Assembly (NCBI GenBank): GCA_947476185.1
Contig: CANJPX010000011.1
Coordinates: 1,491-65,490 of the forward strand
Direction of reading: 5' to 3'
DNA: 64,000 bases
Origin: Bacteroidota bacterium
Lineage (GTDB): Bacteria > Bacteroidota > Bacteroidia > 2-12-FULL-35-15
How positions within the stretch are numbered: the first letter of the stretch is position 1; each line of letters opens with the position of its first letter. The notes beneath the pieces are model-generated. The model had not been told where the DNA came from and searched no databases. It saw only the letters and a program-made list of their open reading frames with translations. A program made the translations under genes and the position numbers. Below are positions 31,842 to 35,042 of this stretch, in pieces.

Positions 31842-34800
31842 ATGGAATACAATTTCAGAGAAGTAGAAAAGCGGTGGCAGGCCTTTTGGGCGGAAAATAA
31901 AACGTTTCGTGCTGAAGACAGATCGTCCAAACCAAAATATTATGTATTGGACATGTTTCCTTATCCAAGCGGTGCGGGATTGCATGTAGGTCACCCATTA
32001 GGATATATCGCTTCCGATATTTTTGCACGTTACAAACGTCTGAAAGGATATAATGTATTGCATCCGATGGGTTACGACTCCTTTGGACTTCCTGCAGAGC
32101 AATATGCAATTCAAACAGGACAACATCCCGAAATAACTACTAAAACAAATATTGCACGTTACCGCGAGCAATTGGATAAGATCGGATTTTCATTTGACTG
32201 GGACAGGGAAGTGCGCACTTCAAATCCCGATTATTACAAATGGACACAGTGGATCTTTATTCAACTTTTTAATTCATGGTATAATCCCGAAACGGATAAA
32301 GCAGAAAATATTTCTACGTTAATAGAAAAATTACGGAGCAATACCCTCTCCTTTGGAGAGGGCCGCGGTGAGACATTCTCCTCTCTTTCCGAAAAGGAAC
32401 AATCTGATCTATTGTTAGAACACCGGCTTGCATATCTAAGCGATACAATGGTGAACTGGTGTCCGCAATTGGGTACTGTACTCGCTAATGAGGAAGTGAA
32501 AGATGGTGTTTCTGAACGTGGCGGTTATCCCGTTGAACGGAAGTTGATGAAACAATGGAGCATGCGTATCACCGCTTATGCGGATAGATTATTGAAAGGT
32601 CTGGATGGCATCGACTGGACAGAATCTATCAAGGAAGCACAACGAAATTGGATAGGAAAAAGTGAAGGAACAAGTTTAAAATTCAGCCTCGCCCCTAATC
32701 CCTCTCCAAAGGAGAGGGGAAGCGAACCCGGTTATCATACTGCTAATAAAAAAATATGGGAAATATTAAAAGAGCATTCCAGAGAAAATAGAAAAAATCA
32801 AACTGAATCAGAACAAATACTTTGGGAAAAGGTTCGTGATAGCAGACTAGGTTTTAAAATAAGGAGACAACATGCAATTGATAATTTTATTGCAGATTTT
32901 GCTTGTCTTGAAAAAAAATTAATTATCGAAGTCGATGGTAAGATACATGATTCTCAGCAAGAATATGACGAAGGAAGAACATATCGTTTAGAAGAAATAG
33001 GATATAATGTTATTCGTTTTTCAAATGATTCTGTGAAAAATAAAATTGATTGGGTGTGCAGCGAAATTGTTAAGGCGTTGCAATCACCCCTCTCCTTTGG
33101 AGAGGGGCAAGGGGGTGAGGCTTTTATTGAAGTATTTACCACAAGACCCGACACGATCTTCGGAGTTTCTTTTGTTACGCTTGCTCCGGAGCATGAATTA
33201 GTTTCACAACTTACCACACCTCAACAAAAAAAAACAGTTGATGAATATATCCTGTTTGCAAAAAATCGCAGTGAACGCGAACGAATGGCGGATGTAAAAA
33301 AGATATCCGGAGTTTTTACCGGAGCCTATGTTCTTCATCCCTTCACCGGAAAACAAATTCCGATCTGGATCGGTGATTATGTGTTGGCCGGTTACGGAAC
33401 AGGCGCTGTAATGGCGGTTCCCGGACACGACTCGCGCGACTATGCCTTTGCAAAACATTTTGAAATTGATATTATTCAAGTTGTTCTCCCCCCTTCTCCT
33501 TTGGAGAAGGGGCCGGGGGATGAGGCCTACGATGCAAAGGAAGGCAAATTAATAAATTCCGATTTCTTAAATGGATTGGAAGTGAAAGCAGCTGTTAAAA
33601 AAGCAATTGCTGTTATTGAAGAAAAATCTTTAGGAAAAGGCAAAACGAATTTCCGTTTGCGCGATGCTGTTTTTGGCCGTCAACGTTATTGGGGTGAACC
33701 AATTCCTGTATATTATGAAAATGGTATTCCGAAAGTTTTAGATGAAAATGAATTGCCATTAGTACTTCCTGAAGTAGATAAATATTTACCAACCGAAAGC
33801 GGTGAACCACCATTGGCACGTGCTACAAATTGGAAGTACAGGCCAAAATCCTCCTTCGAAGGGGGCAAGGGGGATGATGCCTATGCATACGAACATTCTA
33901 CAATGCCCGGATGGGCAGGCTCATCCTGGTATTTTTTACGATACATGGATGCACACAACCGGAAAGAATTTGTGAGCAAAGAAGCCGTTGATTATTGGCA
34001 AAATGTTGACCTATACATTGGTGGTGCAGAACATGCAACAGGACATTTATTATACGTTCGTTTCTGGACAAAATTTTTAAATGATCTTGGATTAATTCCT
34101 TTTTCAGAACCCGCTAAGAAGTTGATCAATCAAGGGATGATACAGGGGGTGAGTAGTTTTGTATACAGAATAGAAAATTCAAATAAATTTGTTTCAATTG
34201 GCTTAAAAAAAGATTTTGAAACTACAGCACTTCACGTTGACGTAAATATTGTAAACAACAATACATTAGATATAGACGCTTTCAAAAACTGGAGAGAAGA
34301 ATATAAGGATGCAGAATTTATTTTGGAAGATGGGAAATACATCTGCGGAAGTGAAGTAGAAAAAATGTCCAAATCGAAATGGAATGTTGTGAGTCCGGAT
34401 CTGATGGTTGAACAATACGGCGCAGACTGTTTGCGCTTATATGAAATGTTCCTCGGTCCGCTTGAACTTTCCAAACCATGGAATACAAACGGAATTTCAG
34501 GTGTTTCAAATTTCATCCGTAAACTTTGGAGGTTGTATCAAAAGGACGAGACATTTTCTGTTTCCAACGAAGCTGCAACAAAACCGGAACTAAAAGCATT
34601 ACACAAAACCATCAAAAAGATCATTCATGATATTGAAAATTTCTCTTTCAATACTTCTGTGAGTAGCTTTATGATCTGTGTAAACGAATTAACAGATCTG
34701 AAATGCAATAAACGTGAAATTTTAGAACCGCTAGCCATCATCATTGCTCCGTATGCACCTCATCTTGCAGAAGAACTCTGGAAAAACTTGGGTCATGCAG

Positions 34801-35042
34801 AAACGATCACCTACGCTGCTTTCCCTGAATGTATCGAATCGTACCTCGTTGAAAGCACTTTCAGTTATCCCGTTTCCTTTAACGGGAAAACGCGCTTTTT
34901 TCAGGAATACGACCTTTCATTGAACAAAGAACAAATAGAAAAAGAAGTATTGACCCTTGAACAAACTCAGAAATACCTAGATGGAAAAGCACCTAAAAAG
35001 GTCATCGTGGTTCACAATAAGATCATAAATATTGTCGTTTAA
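31842..35042 (+). CDS. leuS: Leucine--tRNA ligase with in-frame DUF559 cassette and repeat-derived inserts
   Basis: [14 protein letters not shown] (HIGH), TTRPDT and [14 protein letters not shown] (CP1 editing domain), KMSKS; 1066 aa. Confidence 0.97.
32344..32372 (+). repeat. In-frame solo hairpin element in leuS (peptide [10 protein letters not shown])
   Basis: CCCTCTCC-TTT-GGAGAGGG-CCGCGGTGAG. Confidence 0.85.
32685..33122 (+). mobile_element. Inverted-repeat-bounded DUF559 (Vsr-like) endonuclease cassette fused in frame within leuS
   Basis: Left AGCCTCGCCCCTAATCCCTCTCCAAAGGAGAGGGG, right CCCCTCTCCTTTGGAGAGGGGCAAGGGGGTGAGGCT (inverted); core R.NQTESE..LW..VR....[24 protein letters not shown].....YD..R...L...GY.VIRFSN; mobility is inferred, not shown. 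Confidence 0.8.
33490..33526 (+). repeat. In-frame solo hairpin element in leuS (peptide [12 protein letters not shown])
   Basis: CCCCTTCTCC-TTT-GGAGAAGGGG-CCGGGGGATGAGGC. Confidence 0.88.
33849..33877 (+). repeat. In-frame solo hairpin element in leuS (peptide [10 protein letters not shown])
   Basis: TCCTCCTTCGAAGGGGGCAAGGGGGATGA; matches the intergenic copy at 10371-10397. Confidence 0.8.

What the first reader, a model, noticed from the sequence alone, without database searches (positions are those of the whole stretch)
32685..33122. Hairpin-bounded DUF559 endonuclease cassette inserted in frame at the start of the LeuS editing domain
Seen: between [15 protein letters not shown] and [11 protein letters not shown] there is a 438-bp segment with no stop codon. 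It starts AGCCTC and ends GAGGCT, exactly on codon boundaries (codons 282-427). Its two ends are inverted copies of an approximately 35-bp unit (left GCCTCGCCCCTAATCCCTCTCCAAAGGAGAGGGG; right, reverse-complemented, GCCTCACCCCCTTGCCCCTCTCCAAAGGAGAGGGG), and each end is itself a hairpin. Known: the interior has the DUF559 / Vsr-like nuclease pattern (T.SE..LW, RRQH, ADF, EVDG..H, D..R, IRF.N), and in ordinary LeuS only a short loop separates SEG...F from TTRPDT. Inference: this is a minimal selfish element, a nuclease between inverted REP-like hairpins. It parallels REP-flanked RAYT genes but uses a different nuclease fold, and it persists as a translated passenger inside an essential synthetase. 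It lacks intein splicing motifs and an obvious target-site duplication, and appears to have replaced the native loop.
Basis: partly seen in the sequence, partly recalled or inferred. Interest (0 to 1): 0.92.

Follow-up and report, generated by a model that had tools for sequence, protein, structure and literature searches.

The report
Mobile nuclease cassette inside LeuS gene
A small nuclease gene bounded by two mirror-image DNA hairpins sits in frame inside the essential leucyl-tRNA synthetase gene and is translated as part of the enzyme; near-identical lake strains lack it, and the same kind of cassette is found inside many housekeeping genes across this bacterial phylum.

Summary
A 438-nt stop-free insert (window 32686-33123) lies in frame in leuS. 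It encodes a DUF559 domain (Pfam E 1.9e-34) between two inverted ~35-nt G/C-rich hairpin units.

It is not an assembly artefact. Contigs from another study bridge both junctions. Contigs from two further studies carry almost identical flanks (0-3 differences left, 1 right) with a native 21-nt loop in place of the cassette.

Among relatives, 7 of 28 LeuS genes carry the cassette at the same junction and 13 have the native loop. At least 4 carry a single hairpin unit and 1 a junction remnant.

The same genome has a second cassette in metH and two free-standing ones, each with its own matching hairpins. Across Bacteroidota, cassettes sit in LeuS, MetH, PurL, Acs, IleS, RecJ, HsdR and other proteins. 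Nuclease motif residues are invariant in 29 of 29 embedded copies, and dN/dS is 0.07-0.19.

Best reading: a selfish cassette that is translated through and never spliced. It spreads mainly by nuclease-driven homing, switches sites occasionally, and decays to solo-hairpin scars. Its mobility as a presence/absence polymorphism is shown; the mechanism is inferred. My literature searches found no description of it.

The parts
31842..35042 (+). leuS ORF (1066 aa), the host gene of the cassette
   Evidence: ORF list. Pfam finds the tRNA-synt_1, LeuS editing (PF13603) and Anticodon_1 domains.
32686..33123 (+). The cassette: 438 nt, in frame, replacing 21 native bases
   Evidence: read laying reports a joint 'skips 438' from 32685 to 33124 with 21 other letters between, in contigs of runs X7 and X8. 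The frame is open across it.
32686..32719 (+). Left terminal unit: outward C-rich tail (32686-32699) plus hairpin (32700-32718). It encodes a Pro-rich linker.
   Evidence: AlphaFold2 pLDDT is below 50 for residues 286-299.
32769..33083 (+). DUF559 (Vsr-fold) nuclease domain, LeuS residues 310-414
   Evidence: Pfam PF04480. PDB 3hrl matches at E 4e-19. The AF2 model shows a confident alpha/beta domain here. Motif residues are invariant in 29 of 29 embedded copies.
33087..33121 (+). Right terminal unit: hairpin (33088-33106) plus outward G-rich tail, the inverted copy of the left unit. It encodes a Gly-rich linker.
   Evidence: pLDDT is below 50 for residues 416-425.
32344..32374 (+). Solo hairpin unit in frame in leuS (about residues 168-179)
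   Evidence: Exact motif match, sequence, pLDDT below 50 at residues 172-176.
33492..33527 (+). Solo hairpin unit in frame in leuS (about residues 551-562)
   Evidence: Motif match with 2 mismatches, sequence.
33849..33881 (+). Degenerate solo unit at LeuS 'site B', read as the scar of a former cassette
   Evidence: Sequence. 22 database LeuS proteins and genome G036 carry a full DUF559 cassette at exactly this site, with a similar right-end peptide. pLDDT is below 50 at residues 673-676.

Best explanation
This is a selfish, nuclease-encoding cassette that lives inside genes without splicing.

Anatomy. A roughly 110-aa DUF559 (Vsr-fold) nuclease, with a short N-terminal extension, lies between two inverted ~35-nt G/C-rich units, each a hairpin plus a tail. 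The whole element is a multiple of three bases and stop-free, and it sits in a surface loop of LeuS. The ribosome reads straight through it, so LeuS carries the nuclease as an extra domain. The hairpin-encoded Pro- and Gly-rich peptides act as disordered linkers. The cassette has no in-frame start codon upstream of the catalytic core, so the nuclease is made only as part of the host protein.

How it works, in steps marked shown or inferred:
1. Shown: the cassette is a recent presence/absence polymorphism in an almost identical genetic background. It shares one junction in all carriers.
2. Shown: the nuclease is under purifying selection as strong as that on LeuS.
3. Inferred: the nuclease cuts cassette-free alleles, or cognate solo palindromes. 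Recombinational repair from a cassette-bearing allele then copies the cassette in. This is homing.
4. Inferred: rare illegitimate events seed new loops in other large proteins.
5. Supported by intermediates: recombination between the two palindromic hairpins, or internal deletion, removes the nuclease. This leaves internally deleted forms, solo palindromes and finally short in-frame scars.
For: Reality and recency.
- Contigs of runs X3 and X4 (study P2) bridge both junctions with 0 differences.
- Contigs of X7 (study P3) and X8 (study P4) have the same flanks but a 21-nt native loop instead of the 438 nt. X7 has 0 differences in 286 nt on the left and 1 in 277 nt on the right. X8 has 3 and 1.

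States at the LeuS site among 28 relatives' genes that cover it.
- 7 carry the cassette at an identical junction: 5 in the genus and 2 in other families.
- 13 have the native 45-nt loop.
- 8 have intermediate lengths. Of these, 4 contain a hairpin unit and 1 contains the cassette's right-junction remnant.
- On the LeuS tree, presence needs 7 changes for 7 carriers. Well-supported branches alone force at least 4.

The link to hairpins is general.
- All 4 DUF559 copies in this genome are bounded by their own cognate inverted hairpins: leuS, metH and two intergenic copies.
- 39 of 46 copies in relatives score above the 99th percentile of shuffled flanks, as do 28 of 40 copies in other classes.
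- Hairpin stems differ between cassettes, but the two ends of a given cassette match.

Range.
- 491 long proteins match at E<=1e-5. The top 120 are about 96 LeuS, 20 MetH, 2 PurL-like and 1 helicase.
- Other hosts are an IcmF-like mutase (2 sites), Acs, CoA-transferase, IleS, RecJ, Aldedh-MaoC, a TsaD-like protein, HsdR and a SpoIIE sensor.
- 54 of the 150 listed phylum-wide matches lie in open frames of at least 400 aa. 52 of those are outside this genome, in 42 genomes.

Site-faithful lineages with some switches. On the domain tree, host-site labels need 31 changes. Shuffled labels need 88.7 on average and the minimum possible is 15.

Decay series at the metH site.
- Full cassette in 4 genomes.
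- In G013, a 174-nt internally deleted copy of this genome's own hairpin family.
- In G023, a 45-nt solo palindrome of the same family.
- Shorter remnants, and native loops of 12-24 nt.

Active nuclease.
- 15 motif residues are invariant in 29 of 29 embedded copies.
- dN/dS is 0.07-0.19, against 0.06-0.15 for LeuS.
- PDB 3hrl matches at E 4e-19.

Fusion. There is no in-frame ATG, GTG or TTG before insert residue 117. The AF2 model shows a folded insert domain between linkers with pLDDT below 50.

Precedent. Vsr-like nucleases are a proven homing-endonuclease family (PMC2677866, section 13 read; PMC3239194, abstract read).
Against: - No cleavage, homing or protein data exist. No RNA run was available.
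- The cassette has only a catalytic domain, with no separate DNA-binding domain of the kind I-Bth0305I uses for its ~60-bp footprint. Long-target homing specificity is therefore unexplained.
- Closely related nucleases sit in a dozen unrelated host sites. That is awkward for strict site-specific homing.
- Cassette identity broadly tracks host identity. Most LeuS pairs have the cassette less similar than the host; only L001-L004 has it more similar, 87% against 80%. Long vertical co-descent with allele exchange by ordinary recombination could therefore give much of the pattern.
- dS values are saturated (above 1), so the lower cassette dS seen in some pairs is only a hint.
- The domain tree rests on 112 columns, was built with FastTree, and used rows chosen as best hits to this cassette.
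- The link to 3r3p by sequence is weak (E 0.15).
Confidence: 0.6

Rival explanations
1. Transposon-like or REP/RAYT-like mobility. The DUF559 nuclease recognises its own palindromic ends as hairpin or cruciform structures and excises or copies the element. It also mobilises the solo hairpins in trans. Insertion into new loci is the main mode of spread, not homing into empty alleles.
For: - Cognate inverted hairpins flank 67 of 86 copies above shuffle controls.
- The two ends co-vary within each cassette.
- Many host genes and sites are used.
- Solo units of the same types as the resident cassettes are scattered in the genome: 26 hairpins in the whole genome, and 17 against 0 in a Markov simulation over the 1.43 Mb simulated.
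- The nuclease has no separate DNA-binding domain.
Against: - There is no target-site duplication, and 21 native bases are replaced.
- All LeuS carriers share one junction: 7 of 7 genomes, and at least 80 database proteins.
- Domain lineages are largely site-faithful.
- Copy number per genome is low, with 4 nuclease copies here.
- Solo units at the LeuS and MetH sites share the cassettes' junction positions. They look like deletion products rather than independent insertions.
Confidence: 0.2
2. A relic no longer driven by its own nuclease. An old insertion persists by vertical descent and ordinary homologous exchange of leuS alleles. The DUF559 domain is kept for a host function such as a repair activity, or simply because damaging it would damage LeuS folding.
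For: - Cassette identity falls with host identity: 68-87% within the genus, 59-68% to family f5, and 47-53% to family f11.
- The same junction is seen everywhere.
Against: - Catalytic-motif residues are invariant in 29 of 29 embedded copies, and dN/dS is 0.07-0.19. Folding constraints alone would not protect active-site side chains.
- Filled and empty alleles exist in an almost identical background.
- Presence is scattered on the host tree.
- The same cassette type sits in more than 10 unrelated enzymes and also free-standing between genes. That does not fit a host-specific function.
Confidence: 0.12
3. The hairpin units are the real mobile element, a MITE moved by an unrelated transposase. 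DUF559 is only cargo caught between two of them.
For: - Solo units, and hairpin pairs separated by only 37 nt, occur without DUF559.
- Hairpin positions draw contig depths of 45-190 in lake metagenomes.
Against: - Every cassette examined carries DUF559 in the same orientation relative to the units.
- Each nuclease lineage has its own hairpin sequence.
- An internally deleted copy keeps the nuclease's N-terminus between the same hairpins. This shows that solo forms derive from cassettes.
- I did not survey systematically what else lies between hairpin pairs, so this rival is weakened but not excluded.
Confidence: 0.06
4. Assembly chimera, or an intron or intein that is removed before the protein is mature.
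For: None was found. The genome is a draft assembly of 220 contigs.
Against: - Independent contigs from another study bridge both junctions.
- 7 genomes and about 96 database proteins show the same arrangement.
- No Rfam intron family matches. The only hit, PYLIS_3, scores 23.4 bits against a cut-off of 38.
- Pfam finds no Hint or intein domain.
- The residue following the insert is Phe and the insert ends in Gly-Gly-Glu-Ala, so the intein C-terminal His-Asn plus Cys/Ser/Thr is absent.
- The conserved open frame in every embedded copy argues that the cassette is translated.
Confidence: 0.02

Closest known systems
Vsr-like ('EDxHD') homing endonucleases, e.g. I-Bth0305I (PMC2677866, section 13 read; PMC3239194, abstract read)
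   Same: Both have a nuclease of the Vsr/DUF559 branch of the restriction-endonuclease fold. PMC3424549 (passages read) places VSR, DUF559 and structure 3r3p in one group. Both invade conserved genes. Both show presence/absence at a fixed site.
   Different: The known members sit in group I introns, between split-intein halves, or split the host gene into two ORFs. They have an added DNA-binding domain and a ~60-bp footprint. Here the nuclease is a bare catalytic domain read in the host's own frame. It is never removed and is bounded by palindromic inverted units. Sequence similarity to 3r3p is marginal (E 0.15).
Inteins with homing-endonuclease domains
   Same: Both are in-frame selfish insertions in conserved sites of essential proteins. 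Both carry a nuclease and show empty and filled alleles.
   Different: There is no Hint domain and no splice-junction residues. The insert is predicted to stay in the mature protein as an extra domain on disordered linkers.
ShiLan-type insertion in phage DNA methylases (PMC11855218, abstract read)
   Same: Both are non-splicing homing insertions that keep the host frame open and are predicted to loop out of the host protein.
   Different: In ShiLan the HNH nuclease is hidden in a different frame and the host is a phage gene. Here a DUF559 nuclease lies in the same frame as the host, has hairpin terminal repeats, and sits in bacterial housekeeping genes.
Rickettsia palindromic elements and other in-frame MITEs (PMC10969869, passages read)
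   Same: Both are short palindromic repeats inserted in frame into many unrelated metabolic genes, adding tolerated peptide segments. The solo units here behave the same way.
   Different: RPEs encode no enzyme and no autonomous partner is described in the passages I read. Here the solo units have a nuclease-bearing parent form, and intermediates link the two.
REP/RAYT (REPIN) systems
   Same: Both have a nuclease gene flanked by inverted hairpin repeats, with solo copies dispersed in the genome.
   Different: RAYTs are HUH/Y1 transposase relatives and REPs are extragenic and numerous. Here the fold is Vsr-like, the copies are few, and many lie inside coding sequence.

Membership tests
Pfam DUF559 (PF04480) | Match to the family HMM above the gathering score | tested here: met
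   118.2 bits against a cut-off of 20.6, E 1.9e-34, profile positions 4-109 of 109.
Pfam DUF559 (PF04480) | Conserved catalytic-type motif residues (acidic D/E, DG..H, D..R, RF.N) | tested here: met
   T40, E43, W47, Q62, D71, F72, E82, D84, G85, H88, D95, R98, R111, F112 and N114 are invariant in 29 of 29 embedded copies. 3hrl aligns at E 4e-19.
EDxHD / Vsr-like homing endonucleases | Vsr-fold catalytic domain related to I-Bth0305I | tested here: inconclusive
   3r3p_A matches only at E 0.15 by sequence. PMC3424549 groups DUF559 with 3r3p. No fold comparison was run.
EDxHD / Vsr-like homing endonucleases | Multidomain protein with a separate DNA-binding region (NUMOD or N-terminal domain) | tested here: not met
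   The cassette is 146 aa. Pfam finds only DUF559 in it. The AF2 model shows one compact domain at residues 300-415.
EDxHD / Vsr-like homing endonucleases | Cleaves the cassette-free allele next to the insertion site | not testable with these tools
   This needs a biochemical assay. The sequence of the empty allele is known.
Intein | Hint domain; N-terminal Cys/Ser nucleophile; C-terminal His-Asn followed by Cys/Ser/Thr | tested here: not met
   Pfam finds no Hint or intein family. The insert ends in Gly-Gly-Glu-Ala and is followed by Phe.
Group I / II intron | Match to an intron RNA family | tested here: not met
   An Rfam scan of 32300-33600 at E<=1 gave only PYLIS_3, at 23.4 bits against a cut-off of 38. 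The frame is kept open in all embedded copies.
MITE / RPE-type in-frame palindromic element | Short non-coding element with terminal inverted repeats, inserted in frame | tested here: met
   This holds for the solo units only: 32344-32374, 33492-33527, 33849-33881, and their counterparts in relatives. The full cassette is not a MITE because it encodes a nuclease.
MITE / RPE-type in-frame palindromic element | Target-site duplication | tested here: not met
   Comparison of the filled and empty alleles shows 21 bases replaced and no duplication.
REP/RAYT | HUH/Y1 transposase-type nuclease | tested here: not met
   Pfam gives DUF559 and a weak REase_MTES_1575 match only.
REP/RAYT | Nuclease gene flanked by inverted hairpin repeats that also occur solo in the genome | tested here: met

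The most novel reading that the evidence does not exclude
These cassettes are a distinct class of mobile element: an autonomous 'read-through homing cassette'. Its palindromic ends would serve three purposes at once. They would be the nuclease's recognition or recombination sites in DNA. They would supply disordered linkers that let the nuclease ride as a domain of any large protein. And they would be the substrate for decay into in-frame solo palindromes. On this reading, much of the short Pro/Gly-rich loop variation in Bacteroidota housekeeping enzymes would be scars of this element family. DUF559, a widespread family described in Pfam as of unknown function, would gain a function as a selfish-element nuclease.
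Probability: 0.45. Interest if true: 0.9.

Novelty: new variant of a known kind. Interest (0 to 1): 0.83.

Why it matters
- It shows that an essential enzyme can carry a foreign, apparently active nuclease domain as a translated passenger, with no splicing machinery. Inteins and introns are then not the only way for a nuclease gene to live inside a conserved gene.
- It gives DUF559, a large family of unknown function, a concrete and testable role.
- It offers an origin for in-frame palindromic peptide insertions, of the kind seen as RPEs, as decay products of an autonomous parent.
- It provides natural examples of permissive domain-insertion sites and linkers in LeuS, MetH, IleS, Acs, PurL and other enzymes.
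- Filled and empty alleles coexist in lake populations, so the element's dynamics can be followed directly in metagenome time series.

Tried and rejected
- RNA evidence: no RNA holder was listed for the stretch, so expression and any RNA-level removal could not be examined.
- Rfam: the only hit was a sub-threshold PYLIS_3 match, which I treat as chance.
- Assembly chimera: rejected.
- Intein and intron readings: rejected.
- Hidden nuclease in another frame, as in ShiLan: rejected. The other five frames of the cassette have 4-20 stops and a longest open stretch of 55 codons.
- Clean horizontal-transfer signal from identity matrices and dS: not obtained. Cassette identity mostly tracks host identity, and dS is saturated.
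- I first thought the solo hairpin at the LeuS site might be an independent insertion or a precursor. The shared junction positions and the metH series made 'deletion product' the better reading. The direction of change is still inferred.
- I considered claiming that the terminal units are stop-free in every frame, then dropped it. The left tail contains a TAA in one frame (sequence). Only the hairpin core is open in all three frames, and peptides from all three frames are seen.
- The LeuS tree left out 5 fragmentary rows (L008, L018, L021, L022, L026). It was a quick search with many unresolved forks.
- The phylum survey listed only 150 of 408 matches, so its counts are lower bounds.
- Supplementary files of the papers were not consulted. 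Those of PMC2677866 may list further stand-alone Vsr-like inserts.
- Literature: full-text searches found no description of in-frame DUF559 cassettes. Subscription journals are not covered.
- Not run: complex prediction, fold search, the search of protein representatives and the protein-atlas search.
Full report
THE OBSERVATION

The leuS ORF runs from 31842 to 35042 on the + strand and encodes 1066 aa. It is in frame and free of stops. The other five frames carry 4-20 stops. From the core's base composition, the chance that 146 codons stay open is about 7e-7.

Pfam places a complete DUF559 domain at LeuS residues 310-414: E 1.9e-34 for the insert alone, 118 bits against a cut-off of 20.6. The two ends are inverted copies of each other, with 28-nt arms that are 89% complementary. 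Each end contains an 8-9 bp hairpin, with DNA folding energies of -8 and -10 kcal/mol. The hairpin motif occurs four times in the 64-kb window, always inside leuS, against none in 100 shuffles. The core has 31% GC, the end units 65-69%, and the rest of leuS 40%.

NOT AN ARTEFACT, AND A RECENT POLYMORPHISM

Twenty public runs from 10 studies, all labelled freshwater or lake metagenomes where a label is given, hold the stretch or part of it. I laid the contigs of four runs that are not the likely source.
- In X3 and X4 (study P2), contigs cross the left junction (32400-32768 and 32533-32864) and the right junction (32913-33297 and 33001-33378) with no differences.
- In X7 (study P3) and X8 (study P4), one contig each has the same flanks but skips the 438 nt from 32685 to 33124 and carries 21 other letters there. 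X7 has 0 differences in 286 nt on the left and 1 in 277 nt on the right. X8 has 3 and 1.
- Those 21 letters, read in frame, give an eight-residue loop of the same kind as the native loops of relatives.

The element is therefore 32686-33123. It replaces 21 native bases and makes no target-site duplication. Filled and empty alleles coexist in almost identical backgrounds.

RELATIVES: THREE STATES AT ONE SITE

I searched 41 genomes with LeuS and aligned the genes. Twenty-eight genes cover the site.
- 7 carry the cassette at the same junction: 5 in the genus, and 1 in each of two other families.
- 13 have the native 45-nt loop.
- 8 have intermediate lengths of 51-78 nt. Four of these contain one hairpin unit. 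One more contains the cassette's right-junction remnant.

The solo units share both junction positions with the cassette.

On a LeuS tree built without the insert columns, with 25 rows and 5 fragments left out, the 7 carriers need 7 changes. That is no better than shuffled labels. Well-supported branches alone force at least 4 changes.

Cassette identity nevertheless falls with host identity: 68-87% within the genus and 47-53% to the most distant carrier. Only one pair has the cassette more alike than the host, 87% against 80%. This pattern fits exchange mostly among close relatives, or long co-descent with allele turnover. It does not fit a fixed, strictly vertical insert.

THE SAME ARCHITECTURE ELSEWHERE

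The genome has three more DUF559 copies.
- One lies in frame in metH (a 1407-aa ORF), between inverted hairpins with a different stem sequence. metH also carries a solo unit.
- Two are free-standing intergenic genes, each again between its own inverted hairpin units, here with the tails pointing inward.

I scored the best inverted match between the 120-nt flanks of each copy.
- In relatives, 39 of 46 copies with complete flanks score above the 99th percentile of shuffled flanks: embedded 22 of 27, free-standing 17 of 19.
- In other classes of the phylum, 28 of 40 do so: embedded 17 of 20, free-standing 11 of 20.

Stems differ between cassettes, for example C/T-rich stems of several compositions, but the two ends of one cassette match.

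HOSTS AND RANGE

A search for longer proteins found 491 at E<=1e-5. Of the 120 listed, about 96 are LeuS, 20 are MetH, 2 are PurL-like and 1 is a helicase. Source names, where given, are all Bacteroidota. Nineteen proteins have two DUF559 domains and one has three.

Pfam scans of embedded copies in relatives add further hosts: an IcmF-like mutase (two sites), Acs, a family III CoA-transferase, IleS, RecJ, an aldehyde dehydrogenase-MaoC fusion, a TsaD-like protein, HsdR and a SpoIIE-type sensor.

In an even draw of 401 genomes of the phylum, 173 have a match at E<=1e-10. Of the 150 matches listed, 54 lie in open frames of at least 400 aa. Fifty-two of those are outside this genome, in 42 genomes, 19 of which belong to other classes. 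These are lower bounds, because 258 matches were not listed.

A tree of 189 domains shows host-site labels strongly clustered but not perfectly so: 31 changes, against a shuffled mean of 88.7 and a minimum of 15. LeuS site A needs 14 changes, of which at least 3 are forced by supported branches. Lineages are mostly faithful to a site, with some switches. The tree is short (112 columns), and its rows were chosen by similarity to this cassette.

DECAY SERIES

At the metH site, anchors were found in 24 of 30 loci.
- Four genomes have a full cassette.
- G013 has a 174-nt copy of this genome's own hairpin family. It keeps both hairpins and the first ~35 residues but has lost the nuclease core.
- G023 has a 45-nt solo palindrome of the same family.
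- Others have a single unit or a tail remnant of another family.
- The rest have native loops of 12-24 nt.

In LeuS, 22 database proteins and genome G036 carry a cassette at a second site, just before the [12 protein letters not shown] motif. This window's LeuS has a degenerate unit exactly there (33849-33881), with a right-end peptide like theirs.

I therefore read the three solo units in this leuS as scars of lost cassettes. The series exists. Its direction is inferred.

THE NUCLEASE AND THE FUSION PROTEIN

Fifteen motif residues are invariant in 29 of 29 embedded copies. dN/dS of the core is 0.07-0.19 in 15 pairs, against 0.06-0.15 for LeuS itself, though dS is saturated. The closest solved structure by sequence is 3hrl (E 4e-19). 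The intron homing endonuclease domain 3r3p matches marginally, at E 0.15.

The cassette has no in-frame ATG, and its only in-frame GTG and TTG codons lie after the catalytic core. The nuclease can therefore be made only as part of LeuS.

An AlphaFold2 model from a 58-sequence alignment (mean pLDDT 78, pTM 0.63) shows the following.
- Residues about 300-415 form a confident alpha/beta domain.
- The hairpin-encoded segments 286-299 and 416-425 have pLDDT below 50.
- Two of the three solo-unit peptides are also below 50 (172-176 and 673-676).
- Beta strands 273-284 and 428-433 flank the insert.

MECHANISM

Shown: the cassette is real. It is polymorphic in a near-identical background, shares one junction in all carriers, and keeps an intact nuclease under selection. 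It always comes with cognate inverted hairpins and leaves deletion derivatives.

Inferred: the nuclease cuts cassette-free alleles or cognate palindromes, and repair copies the cassette in (homing). New sites are seeded rarely. The hairpins double as linkers and as sites of the recombination that deletes the nuclease. I give this reading 0.6.

The main rival, at 0.2, is structure-specific action of the nuclease on its own ends, in the manner of REP/RAYT or a transposon. Points against homing are the lack of a DNA-binding domain and the many host sites. Points against transposition are the single junction per site, the absence of a duplication and the low copy number.

COMPARISON WITH WHAT IS KNOWN

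Vsr-like nucleases are an established homing-endonuclease family. They occur in group I introns, between split-intein halves and as gene-splitting inserts (PMC2677866, section 13; PMC3239194, abstract). DUF559 is grouped with them (PMC3424549, passages).

A non-splicing, frame-preserving homing insert with a hidden out-of-frame HNH gene has been described in phage methylases (PMC11855218, abstract). In-frame palindromic repeats are known from Rickettsia (PMC10969869, passages).

Eight full-text searches found nothing on in-frame DUF559 cassettes with hairpin ends. The library lacks most subscription journals.

I file this as a new variant of known kinds of selfish element, namely homing nuclease genes and in-frame palindromic repeats. 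It is neither an intein nor an intron. It is a member of Pfam DUF559. Its membership of the EDxHD family is not established.

CAVEATS

No experiment or RNA data supports expression or activity. The trees are quick or FastTree builds. The counts from the large searches are lower bounds. The direction of the decay series and the role of the hairpins are inferences.

Noticed in passing
window 32344-32374, 33492-33527, 33849-33881: Three further in-frame solo hairpin units lie inside the same leuS gene. All four motif matches in the 64-kb window fall within leuS.
   Followed up: partly
empty allele seen in runs X7 and X8 at window 32685/33124: The 21 native letters replaced by the cassette contain a perfect 10-bp palindrome. 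It might be a target for a dimeric nuclease. Native loops of other relatives do not obviously share it, so it may be chance.
   Followed up: no
window 32700-32719 and 33088-33107, as laid: Contig depth at the two hairpins is 45-190 in two lake metagenomes, against about 3-11 on the flanks. Other contigs join the two hairpins with only 37 unrelated letters between. Hairpin units and short hairpin doublets are therefore abundant in these communities.
   Followed up: no
G000:C12, about 65650-65810: The left-end region of a free-standing DUF559 cassette, including its hairpin unit, is duplicated in tandem with a period of about 97 nt.
   Followed up: no
L086 (G015 metH loop) and L024 (G003 LeuS loop): Other repeat-derived in-frame inserts, unrelated to the DUF559 hairpins, occupy the same loops. 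In L024 one is nested inside a hairpin unit. These loops seem to be general landing or tolerance sites.
   Followed up: no
LeuS alignment, about residues 780-830 of the window's protein: This region is hypervariable. Unrelated inserts of 10-53 aa differ among congeneric genomes and show no DUF559 or hairpin signature.
   Followed up: no
L045 (G030:C20): A DUF559 domain lies at the start of a 1642-aa stop-to-stop frame whose remainder matches SpvB, TcdB-mid, FG-GAP and RHS repeats. It may be a separate upstream gene rather than a fusion.
   Followed up: no
P0001 (a 1702-aa MetH) and L031 (G016 MetH): Single host proteins can carry three and two cassettes respectively, at different sites and with different hairpin families.
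   Followed up: partly
window 32928-33024: A sub-threshold Rfam match to PYLIS_3 (23.4 bits against a cut-off of 38) lies inside the DUF559 coding region. I judge it to be chance.
   Followed up: yes
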